Virus genome (UHGV): UHGV-1357478
Direction: 5' to 3' (one strand)
DNA length: 39,244 nt
From: a virus
Shown here: positions 2,524-20,020 of the stretch, piece after piece
How the letters are laid out: each line of letters starts with the position of its first letter
Numbering within the stretch: the first letter of the stretch is position 1
The notes under the pieces: model-generated
The model's database searches: none
Told to the model about the DNA's origin: nothing
What the model saw: the letters and a program-made list of their open reading frames with translations, nothing else
Program-made: the position numbers and the translations under genes

Positions 2524-4137
2524 GTGGATAATAAATTATTGAACGGTTCTAGGTTTGATAAAGAAGCAAATCTAGTTTATAAAGTACCAGTAAGCAAACT
2601 GCCTACTCGAATAATGCAATATTCGAACGGAGAAAAAGAAGAAGTCGTAGATTTTGAGCATCAGGATGTTTTTAATATGATTGTAAAATTTGTCCGACAT
2701 CATAAAGAAAAACAAGTTCCTCGCCTTAAAGAATTAAAGCGTTATTCTTTAGCACAAAATAATATTAAGTTTACTGAAGATAAAAGTGAAAATCGAGCAG
2801 ACAACAAGATTGCAAACGATTGGGCTAGATTTATTGTCAATTTTAAAAAAGGCGTATTACTAGGTAATCCTTTGAAGTACAATGGCGATAAAACTATAGC
2901 TGATAAAATTAATGATTTTTCTAGCAAATCAAATGAAGATTATCATAATCAGTTAATGTTAGACGACTTACTCGTATACGGAAGAGCATTTGAATATATC
3001 GGTAGAGATGAATACGGTAAAGAAATGTTAGCTAAATTCAGTCCAGAAGAAACGTTTATTATTTATGATACAACGACAAACAAAAATTCTGTATGTGCTG
3101 TTCACTGTTATGATCTCGATTTTAACGATGAAACATTTAGTTATATCGATATTTATGCAAATGATGGCTATTTTTATCAACATGAATCAAAAAATCAAGA
3201 CTATGAACAATCTAAATTGATTGATAAATATCAAACTTTCTTTGATTCTATTCAAGTAAATGAATGGATTAACAATGAGGAGCGTTTAGGAGATTTTGAA
3301 ACAGTTTTAGATAATATAGATGCATATGATCTATCGCAATCTTCAATGGCTAATTTCCAACAAGATTCATCTGAAGCTTATTTAGTTATTAAAGGAAACC
3401 CAGAAACTGCTATAGATGATGAAGATGGTAATTCTGCAGTAGACGTTTTAAACGACATGATAAAAGCTAGATTGTTAATCTTAGGAGATAAGAAATATTA
3501 TGGTGATGGCCAAACTGGTAGCGATCCTGATGCATACTACTTGAAAAAAGAGTATGATACACAAGGGACAGAGGCATATAATGACCGTTTGGTTTCTGAT
3601 ATGTTGCGCTTCACTTCTTTAATTGATTTTACCGATGAAAATATTGGGAGTAATCAGTCTGGTATTGGATTTAGATTTAAAGGTTGGGGAAGTGACAATG
3701 ATAGAAAGAACAAAGAAAGAATGGTCAAAAAAGCAATCATGAGAAGACTAAGATTACTAACTTATTCTTGGTCATTGAAAGATAACTTAAATAAACCAAC
3801 AGGGCTTGCTGAGAAAGTTAAGTCTTTTTTTGTATCTAGAGATAATGATAAAGAGCTGCTTTTTGAAAAGGTGAATGCTATAGAGATATTATTCACACCA
3901 AACGTTCCTCAATCAGATAAAGAAATTATGGAAGTTATTGCCGGAATGGTTGGAATTGTTTCAGATGAAACACTTTGCGAAATGGCGGCTAAATTGACTG
4001 GTGTTCCTGTTCAAACAGAACTAAAGAGATTGAAAAAGGAAAATCAGCCAGATACATTATCCGATGAAAATGCAGCGAAGCTTAAAGAAAAACAGGCAGA
4101 ATTTTTGGCGAATCAGTCGGAAACAGAGGAGGACTGA
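2524..4137 (+). CDS. portal protein
   Basis: 537 aa, immediately after terL, acidic C-terminus; matches the canonical order. Confidence 0.7.
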   Translation: MDNKLLNGSRFDKEANLVYKVPVSKLPTRIMQYSNGEKEEVVDFEHQDVFNMIVKFVRHHKEKQVPRLKELKRYSLAQNNIKFTEDKSENRADNKIANDWARFIVNFKKGVLLGNPLKYNGDKTIADKINDFSSKSNEDYHNQLMLDDLLVYGRAFEYIGRDEYGKEMLAKFSPEETFIIYDTTTNKNSVCAVHCYDLDFNDETFSYIDIYANDGYFYQHESKNQDYEQSKLIDKYQTFFDSIQVNEWINNEERLGDFETVLDNIDAYDLSQSSMANFQQDSSEAYLVIKGNPETAIDDEDGNSAVDVLNDMIKARLLILGDKKYYGDGQTGSDPDAYYLKKEYDTQGTEAYNDRLVSDMLRFTSLIDFTDENIGSNQSGIGFRFKGWGSDNDRKNKERMVKKAIMRRLRLLTYSWSLKDNLNKPTGLAEKVKSFFVSRDNDKELLFEKVNAIEILFTPNVPQSDKEIMEVIAGMVGIVSDETLCEMAAKLTGVPVQTELKRLKKENQPDTLSDENAAKLKEKQAEFLANQSETEED

Positions 4138-6869: not shown

Positions 6870-7883
6870 ATGGCAAATATTGCAGAATTATTTTCACAGA
6901 AAAATGTATTAGATTATGTAAATAATCGTCAAGCACCAGTTTTATTAGGAGAAACATTGTTTCCAGCACGTAAGGTACAGGGGTTAGAGTTTGATGTTTT
7001 AAAAGCGGGATCTAAAATCCCAACAATTGCAAGCGTTCATGCATTCGATACAGAAGCTGAGATTGCTTCACGTGTTGGATCAAAGACAGCTCAAGAGCTG
7101 GCGTTCATCAAACGTAAGATTCAATTAAAAGAAAAAGATTTAATGGCTTTACGCAAGCCTCGTGATGCAGCAGAACAACGTTTTTTAGAACAAGAAGTGT
7201 ACAACGATGTAGATGCAATGGTTGGATCTGTAAATGCGCGTGTTGAAAAGATGCGAATGGAAGTATTAGCAAATGGTAAAGTAACGTTAGATGAAAATGG
7301 GTTAGATTTAGTAGTTGATTATGGTGTGCCAGAAGATCATAAAGGTACTGCTGATTTTTCTGCTCCTGATACAGACATCATTGGGTTATTAACAGAATGG
7401 GCAAGCAAGTTGGATGTAATGCCAACACGCATTTTGACATCTACTAAAGTGCGTAACGCAATCTTGAAAAACGACGGAATCAAGGCATTCTTTAAAACTT
7501 CTGGTTTGTTACCAAATGTTGGCTCGTTAAACCAAATGTTACAACAATTTAATTTACCGACAATTGTGACATATGATGCAAAATATAATAAAGAAAACGC
7601 TGAAGGTGTACTAGTAAAAGAACGTTATTTCCCAGAAAACAAGCTAGTCATGTTTGGGGATGAAAACCCAGGAGAGTCTATTTTCGGTGTAACACCAGAA
7701 GAATCTCGTTTGTTATCAACTGGATCAAATAACTACACAGTAGGCAATATTTTCGCAATGGTATACGAATCTAATTTAGACCCAGTTGGAACATGGACTA
7801 AAGCATCAGGAACAGCTCTACCAAGTTTCCCAGAAGCTGACAATGTATTCCAAGCTACTGTCTTACCTGATTCAAAAAAATAG
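6870..7883 (+). CDS. major capsid protein
   Basis: 337 aa after the scaffold; strong RBS AGGAGG. The 3' end carries a candidate -1 frameshift extension to 7945. Confidence 0.65.
   Translation: MANIAELFSQKNVLDYVNNRQAPVLLGETLFPARKVQGLEFDVLKAGSKIPTIASVHAFDTEAEIASRVGSKTAQELAFIKRKIQLKEKDLMALRKPRDAAEQRFLEQEVYNDVDAMVGSVNARVEKMRMEVLANGKVTLDENGLDLVVDYGVPEDHKGTADFSAPDTDIIGLLTEWASKLDVMPTRILTSTKVRNAILKNDGIKAFFKTSGLLPNVGSLNQMLQQFNLPTIVTYDAKYNKENAEGVLVKERYFPENKLVMFGDENPGESIFGVTPEESRLLSTGSNNYTVGNIFAMVYESNLDPVGTWTKASGTALPSFPEADNVFQATVLPDSKK
7874..7880 (+). other. candidate -1 ribosomal frameshift site, A_AAA_AAA abutting UAG
   Basis: tcA AAA AAA TAG at the capsid 3' end. The -1 frame is open 7871..7945 and encodes ...KIEAPKVESVIPTTDGASIVLS*. 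A stem (gccccg/cggggc) begins 5 nt downstream. Confidence 0.5.
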
Positions 7884-7956
7884 AAGCCCCGAAAGTTGAA
7901 AGTGTAATACCAACAACTGACGGGGCCTCAATTGTATTAAGTTAGGTGGTGTTTAA

Positions 7957-8289
7957 ATGCCTAGCATTACAGATGACATAACAAAACTGTTAAATAGTCC
8001 AGCTAATGAAAAGTTAGAAGTGATTGAGCGACGAACTAGAGAACGTCTCAATAGTTTGTTAAATGTATCGGAAACGCCAAGCAAATTTGATTCGATTATA
8101 TACGAGGTCGTTTTAAAAAGATTTAACCGGATTGGTCAAGAGGGTATGATTTCATATTCTCAAGAAGGTTTAACAATGGCCTTTCCTGATTCTGATTTCT
8201 CTGAATATGAAAAACAAATTAACGATTATTTGAATGAAGAAAAAGAAGTGCAATATAAAAAACTTCGTGGAAAGGCCCGATTCGTATGA
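7957..8289 (+). CDS. head-tail connector (gp6-like)
   Basis: 110 aa, position. Confidence 0.5.
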   Translation: MPSITDDITKLLNSPANEKLEVIERRTRERLNSLLNVSETPSKFDSIIYEVVLKRFNRIGQEGMISYSQEGLTMAFPDSDFSEYEKQINDYLNEEKEVQYKKLRGKARFV

Positions 8290-9377: not shown

Positions 9378-9908
9378 ATGGCTAATGAAGCAAAAGTAGC
9401 GGCTAAAGGTATTGATATTATTTTACTTTTCCGTTTGTTAAAAAAATCAAAAGAGGAAGCAGCATGGAAATTAGCTTTCCAGACAGAACATGAAAATACA
9501 AAAACAAAAGATAGTGATTCTGTGGCCACTAAAGATGGTCCGATTCGCATCCCAGGATCATTGGAAATTGATTTTTCGGCAACATCTATTTTATCAGTCG
9601 GTGATCCGTATGTTGACCAGCTAGAAGAAGCTTTAGACAATGACGATATTATTGAAATCTGGGAAATCAACAAAGCAGAAAAAGGCACAGGAGATAATGC
9701 TGACAAATACAAGGCAACCTATTACCAAGGATATGTAACATCATTTGGTAAATCGCCTAATGCTGAAGACACCGTAGAAGTTTCATTAGAATTTGGTATC
9801 AATGGTAAAGGTGCAAAAGGATTTGCAACATTAACTGCTGATCAAGAAGAAGTAGTTCAATATGTCTTCAAAGATACGACTATTGAAACAGCTGATCCGG
9901 GAAAGTAG
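9378..9908 (+). CDS. major tail protein
   Basis: 176 aa, position. The 3' end carries a candidate -1 frameshift extension to 9970. Confidence 0.65.
   Translation: MANEAKVAAKGIDIILLFRLLKKSKEEAAWKLAFQTEHENTKTKDSDSVATKDGPIRIPGSLEIDFSATSILSVGDPYVDQLEEALDNDDIIEIWEINKAEKGTGDNADKYKATYYQGYVTSFGKSPNAEDTVEVSLEFGINGKGAKGFATLTADQEEVVQYVFKDTTIETADPGK
9899..9905 (+). other. candidate -1 ribosomal frameshift site, G_GGA_AAG abutting UAG
   Basis: ccG GGA AAG TAG. The -1 frame is open 9896..9970 and encodes ...GKVDSPYVGSVTPTVDGASIELS*. A stem (agccc/gggct) begins 5 nt downstream. Confidence 0.5.
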
Positions 9909-9985
9909 ACAGCCCTTATGTGGGAAGTGTAACTCCTACAGTCGATGGGGCTTCTATTGAATTAAGCTAAGAAAGGAAAATAAAT

Positions 9986-10444
9986 ATGGTGGATACTTTT
10001 AAAATTTATAAAGGCCAAACCGAAGTTGTTTCCGGCACATCACCTTTAACTATAACAGGAATGGAACCTAACACCTCTGTGCCAGTTGGTGAGTACCAAG
10101 TAACTCGTGTTGTTAATGGGAAAGAATCAGAGCGAGTAGATATTCCAGCTTTTAAAACATTGTCTATTGCTGTAACTGGCTTAGAGTTTTCTCCTAAAAC
10201 ATCAACAGCAGATGCGGGTACTGCAGGTAGCCGACAAATCACAGCAACTGTCTTGCCTGAAAATGCAACCAACAAAAAAGTAACCTATAAGATTACGCCT
10301 GAAACAGAAGGTCTTGCTGTCTCTGAAACAGGAAATATTACTTGGACAGAAGCGGTACCGGCTGGTGTTTATACCACAACAGGAACAACAGAGGATGGTA
10401 AAAAAACAGCTCAACACACCTTAACATTGAATAATCAAGCTTAA
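9986..10444 (+). CDS. Ig-like (Big_2-type) domain protein, tail/virion surface
   Basis: Thr/Val-rich beta-rich sequence typical of bacterial Ig-like domains; RBS AAGGAAA. Confidence 0.55.
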   Translation: MVDTFKIYKGQTEVVSGTSPLTITGMEPNTSVPVGEYQVTRVVNGKESERVDIPAFKTLSIAVTGLEFSPKTSTADAGTAGSRQITATVLPENATNKKVTYKITPETEGLAVSETGNITWTEAVPAGVYTTTGTTEDGKKTAQHTLTLNNQA

Positions 10445-10498: not shown

Positions 10499-10849
10499 AT
10501 GCAAATCGAAATTAAAGGGAAAAAATATAACTGTATTTTTGGAGTCAAGTTTATTCGTGAATTGGATAAGCAGCATGGGGTAGTTCGTAATGATGTGAAT
10601 CTTGGTATGGGACTAACAACTTTATTACCGCAGCTAGTAAGTGGAAATATCGTTGTTCTATCTTATGTACTTTACACAGCTACCATTACGGAAAAAAGTA
10701 GACCTTCTAAGGATGAAGTAGATGAGTTTGTTGAAACTGTTGATGATATTGAGGCGTTATTTGATGAAACGTTGAAAAACTTAGAAGAAAGCAATGCGGG
10801 AAAGTTAACGGTCAGAAATTTCAAGAAAGCTCTGATGGAGAACAAGTAA
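10499..10849 (+). CDS. tail assembly chaperone (gpG-like)
   Basis: 116 aa immediately upstream of the tape measure gene. Confidence 0.65.
   Translation: MQIEIKGKKYNCIFGVKFIRELDKQHGVVRNDVNLGMGLTTLLPQLVSGNIVVLSYVLYTATITEKSRPSKDEVDEFVETVDDIEALFDETLKNLEESNAGKLTVRNFKKALMENK
10798..10804 (+). other. -1 programmed frameshift site G_GGA_AAG (G -> G-T fusion)
   Basis: Heptamer in the G frame. The -1 frame is open from 10768 through 11199. Confidence 0.6.
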
Positions 10850-11199
10850 GAGAGGAACTAACCTCAGCTGAAGCTTATGAAAATATTCTTATTAATTGTT
10901 TTCGTTACCTAGAAATTACTGATTTATCAGAAATTGAACGAATGACTTTGTATGAATATGAAGTTAGGCTATTGGCGTTTCAGTTAAAAAGACTTGACCA
11001 TGAAAGAGACCTCTATCTTCAATCTTGGCTAAATAACCAAATTAAGGCGACTAAAGGTAAAAAATCCGAACCTTATTATAAGGAATTCAATAAGTTTTTC
11101 AATTATGAAGAACGAGAGAAGCTTATTTTGGGTAAATCATTAATTGATGAAAAAGTTGATATAGGAGCAATTGATTTATTAAGAAAAGCAAATAAGTAG
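10801..11199 (+). CDS. gpT-like part of the G-T chaperone (by -1 frameshift from 10499)
   Basis: -1 frame relative to G. Conserved arrangement upstream of the tape measure gene. Confidence 0.55.
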   Translation, partial: KVNGQKFQESSDGEQVREELTSAEAYENILINCFRYLEITDLSEIERMTLYEYEVRLLAFQLKRLDHERDLYLQSWLNNQIKATKGKKSEPYYKEFNKFFNYEEREKLILGKSLIDEKVDIGAIDLLRKANK

Positions 11200-19771: not shown

Positions 19772-20020
19772 GTGGTTTTTATTATTGGAGGAATGATTTT
19801 GTCAAATGAAATAGTTGTTGCTGTAATAGGATTAGTAGGCAGTACATTTGGTGCATTTATTGGAGTTGTAGCTAGTGCCAATTTGACAGCTTACAGAATT
19901 GAACAGCTAGAAAAGAAAGTAGAAAAACATAATGGGGTAATTGAAAGAACCTTTAAATTAGAAGGTCGAATGCAAGAAGCGGAACATGACATAATAGAAT
20001 TGAAAGGAGCAAAAAAATGA
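19772..20020 (+). CDS. holin-like membrane protein
   Basis: One N-terminal transmembrane segment plus a charged coiled-coil tail. The start is uncertain: GTG 19772, ATG 19793 or TTG 19799. Confidence 0.5.
   Translation: MVFIIGGMILSNEIVVAVIGLVGSTFGAFIGVVASANLTAYRIEQLEKKVEKHNGVIERTFKLEGRMQEAEHDIIELKGAKK

What the first reader, a model, noticed from the sequence alone, without database searches (positions are those of the whole stretch)
7866..7956. Candidate -1 programmed frameshift at the very end of the major capsid gene (A_AAA_AAA immediately followed by UAG)
The capsid ORF ends tcA AAA AAA TAG (7874-7883). The -1 frame is open from 7871 to a TAG at 7943-7945, so a slip on the heptamer would replace the stop with a ~22-aa tail: ...K-IEAPKVESVIPTTDGASIVLS. 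A 6-bp stem (gccccg 7886-7891 / cggggc 7921-7926) starts 5 nt after the heptamer, which is the usual spacing for a frameshift stimulator. The stop codon in the A site could itself act as the pause. Listeria A118/A500-type phages are reported to make long and short capsid forms by frameshifting near the 3' end of cps, so this may be the same phenomenon.
Basis: partly seen in the sequence, partly recalled or inferred. Interest (0 to 1): 0.6.

Follow-up and report, generated by a model that had tools for sequence, protein, structure and literature searches.

The report
Capsid frameshift adds FN3 docking tag
At the end of this Enterococcus phage's major capsid gene, ribosomes very probably slip back one base on a run of A's next to the stop codon and add 21 residues; this slip was already proposed for the near-identical phage phiEf11, but the tail turns out to be the first two strands of a fibronectin-type domain, probably a peg on which a separately encoded Ig-like protein docks.

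Summary
The capsid ORF (6870-7883) ends UCA AAA AAA UAG. The -1 frame is open for 21 codons to TAG 7943-7945. A two-tier hairpin (7886-7926, -18.2 kcal/mol, z -4.4) starts 5 nt after the heptamer.

The same frameshift was proposed in 2016 for phage phiEf11, which is 97.5% identical. Two capsid bands were seen there, but the extension peptide was not detected. So the site is not new.

New here is comparative support:
- Capsids only 52-60% identical keep UCA AAA UAR, a hairpin and a homologous -1 peptide.
- Substitutions are mostly synonymous in that frame.

The same 21-aa peptide is also added to the tail tube, through G_GGA_AAG UAG at 9899-9908. In phiEf11 it is in frame there.

The peptide matches strands A-B of an FN3 domain. 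ORF 9986-10444 supplies strands C-G plus a Big_2 domain. Unsplit homologues exist, and the fused sequence models as a complete FN3 domain (pLDDT 93).

My best reading is a real programmed -1 frameshift that displays a docking tag on some capsid subunits. Docking in trans is inferred, not shown. Related tags occur in Lactobacillaceae and Staphylococcus phages, reached by -1 shift, +1 shift or in-frame fusion.

The parts
6870..7883 (+). Major capsid protein gene (337 aa, lambda gpE-type), zero frame
   Evidence: Pfam PF03864 E 4.6e-37. phrog_29 major head protein. 96.7% identical to phiEf11 ORF10.
7874..7880 (+). Slippery heptamer A_AAA_AAA. The minimal conserved element is A_AAA (7877-7880 with 7876-7879) directly before the stop.
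   Evidence: Sequence. Relatives carry UCA AAA UAG/UAA (L041, L042, L127, L141, L198) or ACG AAA AAA UAG (L192).
7881..7883 (+). Zero-frame stop UAG. Its first two bases, with A7880, form the first tag codon AUA (7880-7882) in the -1 frame.
   Evidence: In 19 of 19 aligned short-tag cassettes the stop's TA is invariant and overlaps the first tag codon (A/G)TA.
7880..7945 (+). -1 frame extension IEAPKVESVIPTTDGASIVLS (21 codons, 7880-7942) plus its stop TAG 7943-7945. It corresponds to strands A-B of an FN3-like domain.
   Evidence: Coding-type substitution pattern. Aligns to the N-terminal strands of unsplit domains. AF2 places the paralogous tail tag as strands A and B, pLDDT 89-98.
7886..7926 (+). 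Putative frameshift-stimulating hairpin: outer stem 7886-7891/7921-7926, inner stem 7894-7898/7914-7918. It is formed by the tag-coding sequence itself.
   Evidence: -18.2 kcal/mol, z -4.4. Equivalent hairpins in all relatives. The paired synonymous sites are fixed: C in 18/19 and G in 19/19, against 12.5% GGG usage in the window. No terminator or promoter pattern here.
7944..7959 (+). Shine-Dalgarno AGGUGGUG (7944-7951), overlapping the -1 stop, and the ATG (7957-7959) of the head-tail connector gene
   Evidence: Next gene 7957-8289 is PF05135.
9378..9908 (+). Tail tube gene ending CCG GGA AAG UAG: heptamer G_GGA_AAG 9899-9905, stop 9906-9908
   Evidence: PF06199. The same heptamer serves the tail-chaperone shift at 10798-10804.
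9905..9970 (+). -1 frame tail tag VDSPYVGSVTPTVDGASIELS (13/21 identical to the capsid tag) plus stop TAA 9968-9970. Its hairpin has outer stem 9911-9916/9947-9952.
   Evidence: Hairpin -17.9 kcal/mol, z -2.5. The tag is in frame with the tail tube gene in phiEf11, L003, L004, L006 and L009, and in the -1 frame in the window, L002, L007, L008 and L010.
9986..10444 (+). Gene for an incomplete FN3 domain (strands C-G, residues 1-60) followed by Big_2. It is the proposed partner that docks on the tags.
   Evidence: Big_2 at residues 62-144. phrog_341, full-length match. About 60 homologue clusters start at the same strand. The fused tag+ORF models as FN3.

Best explanation
This is a programmed -1 ribosomal frameshift at the last sense codons of the major capsid gene.

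Proposed mechanism (inferred): the ribosome reaches UCA AAA AAA UAG and is held by two things, the slowly decoded stop codon and a hairpin that begins 5 nt downstream. Peptidyl-tRNA-Lys, alone or together with the A-site tRNA-Lys, re-pairs one base back on the A run. Reading then continues AUA GAA GCC ... for 21 codons and ends on the Shine-Dalgarno sequence of the next gene. A minority of capsid subunits therefore carry IEAPKVESVIPTTDGASIVLS at the C-terminus.

Shown by homology and modelling: this peptide is not a random tail. It corresponds to strands A and B of a fibronectin type III-like domain. The rest of that domain (strands C-G), followed by a Big_2 Ig-like domain, is encoded separately by ORF 9986-10444. 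The tail tube gene receives a paralogous tag through its own site, G_GGA_AAG UAG.

Inferred function: the tag is a docking peg. The incomplete FN3 domain completes its fold on the tag. One Ig-like decoration protein is thereby fixed to both head and tail, at a density set by frameshift efficiency.
For: 1. Anatomy. The heptamer, stop, 5-nt spacer and stable hairpin are all present.

2. Conservation of the site. Capsids 52-60% identical keep UCA AAA UAG/UAA, a hairpin 5-6 nt after the slip codon (2-3 nt after the stop), and a -1 peptide ending (P/A)T.DGA.I...* (L041, L042/L056/L141, L127/L128, L186/L198/L201, L192).

3. Coding signature. Across 20 distinct tag sequences, substitutions fall 5/9/22 on codon positions 1/2/3. 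That gives 20 synonymous and 14 non-synonymous changes in the tag frame, against 4/27 and 5/24 in the other frames, which also hold 44 and 50 stops. On capsid-only comparisons, I count 10 of 13 changes as synonymous third-position changes from the sequences.

4. RNA-level constraint. In 19 cassettes the pairing CCC/GGG is invariant. The two synonymous sites involved are C in 18/19 and G in 19/19, although GGG is only 12.5% of Gly codons here. Lineages with a separate local hairpin use GGT or GGA at that glycine. Read directly from the sequences, that local stem shows an A-U to G-C double change between L042 and L052.

5. Experiment in a 97.5% identical phage. phiEf11 virions contain two ORF10 species, 41-43 and 38-39 kDa (PMC5221750).

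6. Sister site. The tail tube ends G_GGA_AAG UAG with a paralogous tag in the -1 frame. Five relatives have it in frame, so it is certainly translated there.

7. Identity of the tag.
- A full HMMER scan finds proteins where tag and half-domain are one contiguous domain (P0008, P0023, P0025, P0035, P0054). About 60 clusters start exactly at strand C.
- AF2 of the fusion gives pLDDT 93.3 and pTM 0.84, with the tag as strands A-B.
- Foldseek and a profile search both return FN3.

8. Association of tag and half-domain.
- Every locus with a capsid tag and enough flank also holds a half-domain gene.
- Relatives 82-88% identical that lack the tag also lack the half-domain gene within up to 7 kb downstream.
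- Phages carry one half-domain gene but two or three tags, after the tail gene in the window and after the capsid gene in L198 and L232.
Against: - The extension peptide has never been observed. MALDI of the upper phiEf11 band found none. This is explicable: trypsin would give IEAPK and a 1586.8-Da C-terminal peptide with no basic residue.
- Frameshift efficiency is unknown.
- A7 runs are common in this genome.
- Covariation in the inner stem is inconclusive. Sliding the partners by +1 scores as well, and RNAalifold keeps only the three invariant pairs.
- Docking in trans rests on homology and a single-chain model of an artificial fusion. No complex was modelled or measured.
- Two loci (L204, L209) carry a tail tag but no detectable half-domain gene within 7 kb.
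- In one locus (L211) the capsid tag lies in the zero frame behind the stop.
Confidence: 0.75

Rival explanations
1. The frameshift is real, but the 21-aa tail works by itself or is a relic of an FN3 domain once fused in cis. It might be a small surface strand that stabilises capsomer contacts. No protein docks on it.
For: Two loci have a tail tag without any half-domain gene nearby (L204, L209). The tail arrangement (tag, stop, 15 nt, ATG) looks like a once-continuous gene cut in the B-C loop. No binding data exist.
Against: - A relic would not stay under purifying selection on capsid, tail tube and decoration genes of unrelated families in Enterococcus, Lactobacillaceae and Staphylococcus phages.
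- An FN3 domain lacking strands A and B should not fold alone (inference from the fold), yet about 60 protein clusters begin exactly there.
- Tags within one phage resemble each other more than tags of other phages, as expected for one shared partner.
Confidence: 0.3
2. The longer capsid form arises by transcriptional slippage. RNA polymerase adds one A in the A7 run, which gives the same protein without any ribosomal event.
For: An A7-to-A8 mRNA would encode exactly ...KK-IEAPK... (sequence). Runs of A are known slippage sites (PMC5009743).
Against: - Relatives with only four A's (UCA AAA UAG) keep the same extension.
- The tail site is a classical ribosomal heptamer, G_GGA_AAG, with no homopolymer.
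- Other family members use G_GGG_GAG or +1 CCC_UGA.
- A conserved hairpin at stimulator distance, and a stop fixed at the slip site, have no role in polymerase slippage.
Confidence: 0.08
3. There is no recoding. The A run, the open -1 frame and the stem are incidental, or the stem is an mRNA stability or processing element after a highly expressed gene. On this view the two phiEf11 capsid bands come from proteolysis, modification or gel behaviour.
For: A7 runs are not enriched. Many relatives have a plain hairpin or terminator after the capsid stop. The extension peptide was not found by MS.
Against: - It does not explain a -1 peptide conserved at 52% capsid identity with mostly synonymous change.
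- It does not explain the same peptide being in frame on the phiEf11 tail tube, or its homology to FN3 strands A-B.
- There is no U tract or terminator pattern at 7884-7956.
Confidence: 0.05
4. The -1 ORF exists mainly to carry ribosomes through the hairpin and release them on the Shine-Dalgarno sequence of the connector gene, coupling its translation to the capsid gene. On this view the peptide is irrelevant.
For: The -1 stop TAG 7943-7945 overlaps AGGUGGUG, 11 nt before ATG 7957. The same layout occurs in relatives.
Against: - Peptide-level conservation and the FN3 homology are not needed for coupling.
- The tag occurs in frame.
- The tag also occurs before unrelated downstream genes: connector, half-domain gene, tail chaperone.
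Confidence: 0.07

Closest known systems
phiEf11 ORF10 frameshift hypothesis (Stevens et al. 2016, Bacteriophage 6:e1251381; PMC5221750)
   Same: Same site in a 97.5% identical phage: AAAAAAA before TAG, a 21-aa extension of about 2.1 kDa, and a downstream stem-loop. Two ORF10 bands were seen on SDS-PAGE.
   Different: The authors called it speculative because MS found no extension peptide. They gave no comparative evidence, did not note the tail tube tag, and did not identify the peptide.
Listeria phages A118/A500: Cps -1 and Tsh +1 frameshifts (Dorscht et al. 2009, as summarised in PMC5009743)
   Same: Both the major capsid and the tail tube get a longer form by recoding at a slip site touching the stop. 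A118 cps ends G_GGA_AAC UAA followed by a hairpin; tsh ends CCC_UGA. The same HeH-appending cassette occurs on relatives of this capsid (L052 with the A118 heptamer, L181 with C_CCA_AAA). The CCC_UGA +1 site delivers the FN3 tag in L149.
   Different: The A118 capsid is not a close homologue. Its extensions are complete modules (a HeH domain on Cps, Big_2 on Tsh), not a 21-aa fragment of a domain.
Lactobacillus phage A2 gp5A/gp5B (Garcia et al. 2004, cited)
   Same: A -1 shift near the 3' end of the major head gene gives a second capsid component. The C_CCA_AAA slip site I recall for A2 (from memory; not checked here) is seen in relatives of this capsid (L181).
   Different: The slip site differs. 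From the relatives, the extension is long (I recall about 85 aa) and HeH-type.
SPP1 gp17.1* and T3/T7 gp10B: FN3 or Ig-like extensions by frameshifting (PMC8718954, PMC5009743)
   Same: An FN3 or Ig-like module is displayed on a fraction of tail tube or capsid subunits through a frameshift.
   Different: There the whole domain is appended in cis. Here only strands A-B are appended, and the rest is a separate gene product.
Donor-strand complementation in chaperone-usher pili, and engineered split-protein tags (own knowledge; analogy only)
   Same: An incomplete Ig-like fold is completed by a strand from another polypeptide, giving a stable non-covalent joint.
   Different: The proteins are unrelated. 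Two strands are donated here rather than one. No experimental evidence exists for this system.

Membership tests
Programmed -1 ribosomal frameshift cassette | In-frame slippery heptamer X_XXY_YYZ, or a P-site slip site next to a slow A-site codon | tested here: met
   A_AAA_AAA at 7874-7880 in the capsid frame, directly followed by UAG. Relatives have A_AAA UAR.
Programmed -1 ribosomal frameshift cassette | Stable RNA structure 5-9 nt downstream of the slip site | tested here: met
   Hairpin 7886-7926, 5-nt spacer, -18.2 kcal/mol, z -4.4. Positionally equivalent hairpins in relatives. Synonymous sites in the paired bases are fixed. Inner-stem covariation is inconclusive.
Programmed -1 ribosomal frameshift cassette | The -1 frame downstream is conserved as coding sequence | tested here: met
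   Codon-position bias 5/9/22. 20 synonymous and 14 non-synonymous changes, against 4/27 and 5/24 in the other frames, which are full of stops.
Programmed -1 ribosomal frameshift cassette | Two protein products from one gene, the longer one carrying the trans-frame peptide | not testable with these tools
   Literature: two ORF10 bands in phiEf11, but the trans-frame peptide was not detected (PMC5221750).
Fibronectin type III (FN3) domain | Seven-strand beta sandwich recognisable by profile and by fold | tested here: met
   For the tail tag (13/21 identical to the capsid tag) fused to the first 60 residues of ORF 9986-10444, joined by the natural intervening codons: PDB profile hits to fibronectin at E 5e-6; AF2 pLDDT 93.3; all 50 top Foldseek hits listed are FN3 or FN3-derived (scaffold) domains or FN3-containing proteins, TM up to 0.70. 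Pfam alone gave nothing. The tag alone is only strands A-B.
A118-type long capsid form (HeH/LEM extension) | The extension encodes a HeH/LEM-like domain | tested here: not met
   The window extension has 21 aa and no HeH motif. The A118 -1 frame equals ORF7, a HeH/LEM protein. HeH extensions do occur on other relatives of this capsid (L052, L181).
Ig-like domain appended in cis by frameshift (Fraser et al. type; SPP1 gp17.1*, T3 10B) | A complete Ig-like or FN3 domain is encoded in the shifted frame | tested here: not met
   Only 21 codons lie before the -1 stop. The rest of the domain starts at ATG 9986 of another gene.
Split-FN3 tag / half-domain system (proposed here) | The tag-bearing structural gene co-occurs with a gene that starts at FN3 strand C | tested here: met
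   Seen in the window, L152-L155, L176, L186, L198, L201, L213, L215, L149, L229, L230, L232 and Staphylococcus phage 42E. Exceptions: L204 and L209.
Split-FN3 tag / half-domain system (proposed here) | Tag and half-domain bind in trans and are present together in virions | not testable with these tools
   Only a single-chain fusion could be modelled. No multimer prediction or experiment was available.

The most novel reading that the evidence does not exclude
Many siphophages of Bacillota (Enterococcus, Lactobacillaceae, Staphylococcus) may use a portable peg-and-socket system.

- The peg is a 21-aa tag, FN3 strands A-B. It is written onto major capsid, tail tube or decoration proteins of unrelated families by whatever recoding is at hand: -1 on A_AAA, A_AAA_AAA, G_GGA_AAG or G_GGG; +1 on CCC_UGA or CCC_AGC; or plain fusion.
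- The tag's own codons form the frameshift-stimulating hairpin.
- The socket is a separately made protein that starts at FN3 strand C. It completes its fold on the tag, which decorates head and tail with Ig-like or other modules at a tunable density.
- In some phages the socket protein itself ends in a tag (L041, L042, P0022), which would allow chains.
Probability: 0.5. Interest if true: 0.8.

Novelty: new variant of a known kind. Interest (0 to 1): 0.6.

Why it matters
The frameshift by itself is ordinary. Such sites are known in A2, A118, PSA, T3/T7 and SPP1, and this very site was proposed for phiEf11 in 2016. The comparative data here turn that speculative proposal into a well-supported one. 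They also explain why MALDI missed the peptide.

The less ordinary result is what the 21 residues are: a third of an FN3 domain whose remainder is a separate gene. If the two parts join in trans, this would be the following:
- a so far undescribed way of fixing decoration proteins to virions by fold complementation;
- an explanation for why both head and tail proteins of many Gram-positive phages carry short frameshift tails;
- an explanation for the many database proteins annotated 'major tail protein' (phrog_341) that start in the middle of a domain;
- a natural small display tag for phage engineering.

It also shows one coding sequence serving three roles at once: protein strand, frameshift stimulator and overlap with the stop codon.

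Tried and rejected
- **Pfam on the tag fused to the half-domain.** No FN3 hit, only noise-level matches.
- **AF2 of the fusion without an alignment.** Poor model, pLDDT 57. It was superseded by the run with alignment A4.
- **Word-indexed protein search with the fusion.** Only close ORF16 homologues and fragments.
- **Metagenome scan with the tag profile.** Only three loci, all of known types.
- **RNAalifold on 19 cassettes.** It keeps just the three invariant C-G pairs. Pair counting on the window's structure is not register-specific, since slide +1 scores equally. I therefore rest the RNA argument on per-sequence stability and on fixed synonymous sites, not on covariation.
- **Terminator or promoter reading of the hairpin.** No pattern at 7884-7956.
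- **Rfam.** Only a sub-threshold rdlD match on the minus strand, 27 bits against a threshold of 50. I treat it as chance.
- **A second 'A_AAA_AAA + stop' at 20011-20020.** It is an ordinary ATGA overlap with the next, holin-like gene.
- **Close homology with the A118 capsid.** Rejected: no Listeria phage appears among the ten most frequent genera or the 60 spread-sampled rows of the tblastn output.
- **Literature searches for a split FN3 or strand complementation in phage decoration.** Nothing found in the held library. The Dorscht 2009 paper could not be retrieved under the PMC id I tried.
Full report
**What the window is.** The region matches Enterococcus faecalis phage phiEf11 at 97.5% identity. 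Around the finding, the gene order is: scaffold, a 113-aa head protein, major capsid (6870-7883; Pfam Phage_cap_E, E 4.6e-37), head-tail connector (7957-8289), then further on the tail tube (9378-9908), a Big_2 protein (9986-10444), tail chaperones and the tape measure.

**Checking the observation.**
- The capsid ORF ends GAT TCA AAA AAA TAG, with the A run at 7874-7880 and the stop at 7881-7883.
- After a -1 slip the reading is AUA GAA GCC CCG ..., giving IEAPKVESVIPTTDGASIVLS (21 aa) up to TAG 7943-7945.
- That stop overlaps the Shine-Dalgarno sequence AGGUGGUG of the next gene. The -1 frame has no start codon of its own.
- GCCCCG 7886-7891 pairs with CGGGGC 7921-7926. Folding adds an inner stem (7894-7898 / 7914-7918). 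The 47-nt element has -18.2 kcal/mol and z -4.4, and none of 200 shuffles folds as well.
- No terminator-like or promoter-like pattern lies there. Rfam gives only a sub-threshold minus-strand match.
- Taken singly, the features are not unusual. There are 29 runs of A7 or longer against about 40 expected, and many genes have long open -1 frames after their stop.

**Prior art.** Stevens et al. 2016 (PMC5221750) analysed phiEf11 virions.
- Two SDS-PAGE bands, 41-43 and 38-39 kDa, both matched ORF10, the capsid protein.
- The authors proposed exactly this -1 shift on AAAAAAA, a 21-aa extension of 2,106 Da, and a downstream stem-loop.
- They called it speculative because MALDI found no extension peptide.
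- That failure is explicable. Trypsin would give IEAPK (556 Da) and VESVIPTTDGASIVLS (1586.8 Da), and the latter has no basic residue (the ionisation argument is inference).
- So the site is not a new discovery.

**Comparative evidence for the shift.** I collected relatives of the capsid from viral, genome and metagenome collections.
- Close relatives (93-97% identical) are nearly identical at the site.
- Relatives about 82-88% identical end differently and have no extension. The capsid 3' end is therefore a recombination boundary.
- Several lineages only 52-60% identical keep the arrangement:

| Locus | Capsid 3' end | -1 peptide |
|---|---|---|
| L041 | GCG TCA AAA TAG AA-CCGCCAC... | IEPPRNSGGDIPMKPTNVTVNPTIDGAAISVK* |
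| L042/L056 (Companilactobacillus) | TCA AAA TAG | IDPPSSSDGDKTSPDKPTNVKSVATTDGAIISAE* |
| L141 | same, with TAA | INPPSSSDGDKTVPDKPTNVKSVATADGAIISAE* |
| L127/L128 | TCA AAA TAG ACACGCCATC... | IDTPSGSGGAKTKP(A/T)KPTKVTSMATADGAIISAN* |
| L186/L198/L201 | ACG TCA AAA TAA | ITAPSGVSATPTSDGALITA(K/E)* |
| L192 | ACG AAA AAA TAG | IAAPSGVSATPESGGTLITAK* |

- Each has a stable hairpin starting 2-3 nt after the stop.
- Among 20 distinct tag sequences, substitutions on a minimum spanning tree fall 5/9/22 on codon positions 1/2/3. That gives 20 synonymous and 14 non-synonymous codon changes in the tag frame. The other two frames give 4/27 and 5/24 and hold 44 and 50 stops.
- L127 and L128 differ at seven bases in the tag, and six of them are synonymous.

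**What the relatives say about mechanism.**
- The common denominator is A_AAA directly before UAG or UAA.
- With UCA AAA UAR a tandem slip is not possible, because tRNA-Ser would have to re-pair on GUC. The likely event is a P-site slip of peptidyl-tRNA-Lys while the stop sits in the A site, a -1 'shifty stop' (inference).
- In the window both routes are open.
- In an ungapped alignment of 19 short cassettes, the TA of the stop is invariant. It always forms the last two bases of the first tag codon, AUA or GUA.
- Transcriptional slippage could make the same protein from A7. It cannot explain the A4 relatives, the heptamer sites, or the hairpin.

**The hairpin is written in the tag's own codons.**
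- The outer stem pairs the (Ala/Ser)-Pro codons (GCC CC / AGC CC) with the Gly-Ala codons of the DGA motif (GGG GC).
- The pairs at alignment columns 17-53, 18-52 and 19-51 are C-G in 18 or 19 of 19 sequences.
- Column 17 is a synonymous third position and is C in 18/19.
- Column 53 is the third position of the Gly codon and is G in 19/19. GGG makes up only 12.5% of Gly codons in the window.
- Lineages whose extension begins with a linker that has its own local hairpin use GGT or GGA for that glycine.
- Read directly from the sequences (folds), those local stems differ by a U-A to U-G change and by an A-U to G-C double change: CGCCAUC/GAUGGCG in L042, CGCCAUC/GGUGGCG in L127, CGCCGUC/GGCGGCG in L052.
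- Formal covariation on the inner stem is inconclusive.

**A sister site on the tail tube.**
- The tail tube gene ends GAT CCG GGA AAG TAG. This is the classical heptamer G_GGA_AAG (9899-9905) touching the stop.
- The -1 frame reads VDSPYVGSVTPTVDGASIELS* (9905-9970), which is 13/21 identical to the capsid tag. It has the same kind of hairpin (-17.9 kcal/mol, z -2.5).
- Four further loci share this -1 layout.
- In phiEf11 and four other loci the same peptide is in frame with the tail tube gene, through a one-base difference just upstream. The peptide is therefore certainly translated in those phages. Close relatives differ only in how often it is made.
- The phage uses the same heptamer at 10798-10804 for what looks like the usual tail-chaperone frameshift.

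**What the peptide is.**
- The tail tag is followed, after a stop and 15 nt, by ORF 9986-10444. Its C-terminal part is Big_2. Its first 60 residues have no Pfam match.
- I ran a full HMMER scan of 1.8 billion proteins with tag + junction + those 60 residues, and it gave 83 hits.
- In P0008, P0023, P0025, P0035 and P0054, one contiguous stretch covers both parts (query 4-9 to 86-87). For example, P0025 reads PPTIESVTPTEDGAVVIVVSGNGIDGSTMKVY...
- P0054 has the same FN3-like + Big_2 architecture, unsplit.
- About 60 other clusters start at residue 1-4, aligned to query 29-33. That is exactly at 'M..TFKIYKG'.
- ORF 9986-10444 matches phrog_341 over its full length, so the truncated start is the family norm.
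- With alignment A4, AlphaFold2 models the fusion at pLDDT 93.3 and pTM 0.84. The tag forms two strands (residues 7-14 and 17-23) at pLDDT 89-98, and only the artificial junction is lower, at 73.
- All 50 top Foldseek matches listed are FN3, FN3-derived or FN3-containing structures over the full length, with TM up to 0.70. A profile search of PDB sequences also returns fibronectin, E 5e-6.
- The tag is therefore strands A-B of an FN3-like domain. The domain is split in the B-C loop by a stop, a ribosome-binding site and a start.

**Distribution of the split system.**
- L039/L176 (Lactobacillus type): the capsid has no tag. The 120-aa protein upstream of it and the tail tube both do, each through GGG GAG TAA, read as a -1 slip on G_GGG.
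- L198, L201 and L232: the half-domain gene follows the capsid gene, and the tail tag has no adjacent partner. This mirrors the window, where the partner gene follows the tail gene.
- L232: the capsid is of another family (Phage_capsid_4) and uses TCA AAA AAA GCG TAG.
- L149: the tail tag lies in the +1 frame after ACG CCC TGA. That is the motif reported for Listeria tsh genes.
- Staphylococcus phage 42E (Triavirus): both an unrelated (non-gpE-type) capsid gene and the tail tube gene end TTA CCC AGC TAA. The tags PAKPQKVNVTAKAKSAVISAE* and PANPQNVEVAVNSKSATVSAE* lie in the +1 frame, followed by a split FN3 + Big_2 gene.
- The half-domain is found in 599 phage records, mostly from Staphylococcus and Enterococcus.
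- L041, L042 and P0022: the half-domain protein itself ends in a tag.
- Relatives with 82-88% identical capsids but no capsid tag have neither tags nor a half-domain within up to 7 kb downstream.
- Exceptions: L204 and L209 have a tail tag but no half-domain gene nearby. L211 has the capsid tag in the zero frame behind the stop, through a C5-versus-C4 run.

**Proposed function and its status.**
- Shown: the tag is conserved, it is translated in some genomes, it is homologous to FN3 strands A-B, and it is associated with a gene for the remaining strands.
- Inferred: the half-domain cannot fold alone and completes itself on the tag. This would fix the Big_2 protein to a fraction of capsid and tail subunits.
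- Capsid C-termini are exposed in T7-type display systems (own knowledge), so access is plausible.
- Tags within one phage are more alike than tags across phages. This fits one shared partner, though duplication alone could also produce it.
- I put the frameshift at about 0.85, the FN3 A-B identity at about 0.9, and trans-docking at about 0.5.

**Comparison with known systems.**
- A118 uses the same logic. Its cps ends GCG GGA AAC TAA followed by a hairpin, and the -1 frame is the HeH/LEM ORF7. Its tsh ends CCC TGA, with Big_2 in the +1 frame.
- HeH cassettes also sit on relatives of this capsid. L052 uses G_GGA_AAC TAA, and L181 uses C_CCA_AAA CCG TAG, the slip site I recall for phage A2.
- SPP1 gp17.1* adds a whole FN3 domain in cis.
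- The window differs in appending only part of a domain.
- Searches of the held literature found no description of a split FN3 or strand complementation in phage decoration. That is not proof of absence.

**Verdict.** The finding is real and correctly interpreted, but the site itself was already published as a hypothesis. Its added value lies in the comparative support and in the unexpected nature of the extension.

Noticed in passing
window 9899-9970: The tail tube gene ends G_GGA_AAG UAG, and a 21-aa paralogue of the capsid tag lies in the -1 frame. Close relatives are polymorphic: five loci have the tag in frame and five have it in the -1 frame.
   Followed up: yes
window 10798-10804 and 10849-10942: G_GGA_AAG lies inside the first tail-chaperone gene (10499-10849). 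The -1 frame runs on into ORF 10942-11199. This looks like the usual G/GT-type tail chaperone frameshift, and it uses the same heptamer as the tail tube site.
   Followed up: partly
window 9986-10444: This protein, annotated 'major tail protein' (phrog_341), starts in the middle of an FN3 domain at strand C. About 60 protein clusters in public data start at the same point.
   Followed up: yes
L151 (Staphylococcus phage 42E, NC_007052) 1230-1310 and 3390-3470: Both the capsid gene and the tail tube gene end TTA CCC AGC TAA, with an FN3 A-B tag in the +1 frame. The tags are annotated only as tiny ORF172 and ORF083. A split FN3 + Big_2 gene follows the tail tube gene.
   Followed up: partly
L144 2480-2575: An unrelated major capsid gene ends CCA AAA GCC TAA. 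The tag (K)PNTPSKVKSDATADGAIISAE* lies in the +1 frame. This could be a +1 shift on AAA_G or an assembly indel. It is a single metagenome contig.
   Followed up: no
L211 8039-8103: The capsid tag lies in the zero frame directly behind the TAG stop, because of a C5 run where relatives have C4. This could be stop read-through, a defective copy or a homopolymer sequencing error.
   Followed up: no
L198 8103-8170 and 11551-11620; L209 10475-10545: A conserved stretch of about 60 nt (..GTCGCC.AAGAAA..CACAGTAC...GGCGGCT..) follows both the capsid tag and the tail tag in Lactobacillus-type phages. Its function is unknown; it may be a long-range stem.
   Followed up: no
L204 and L209 (tail tag near 11050 and 10410): The tail tube carries a -1 tag, but no half-domain gene is detectable within 7 kb either side. 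These orphan tags argue against obligatory pairing.
   Followed up: partly
L229 2100-2125; L232 6175-6200; L039 1195-1215: At G_GGG_GAG UAA sites the G run is complementary to the C run just after the stop (GGGGGAG UAA CUCCCCC). The C run could therefore pair either upstream with the slip site or downstream with the GGGG of the tag.
   Followed up: no
window 7880-7943, minus strand: A sub-threshold Rfam match to the rdlD antitoxin RNA (27.4 bits against a gathering score of 50, E 0.008). It is probably a by-product of the hairpin.
   Followed up: no
L011-L036 and L156-L171, at the capsid 3' end: Capsids 82-85% identical to the window's end ...AEG* (or ...AEA*) and run straight into a different small gene. 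The recombination boundary lies exactly at the capsid C-terminus, and the whole tag system is absent.
   Followed up: partly
window 20011-20020: GCA AAA AAA TGA looks like a second 'A7 + stop' site. It is an ordinary ATGA overlap with the next, holin-like gene.
   Followed up: yes
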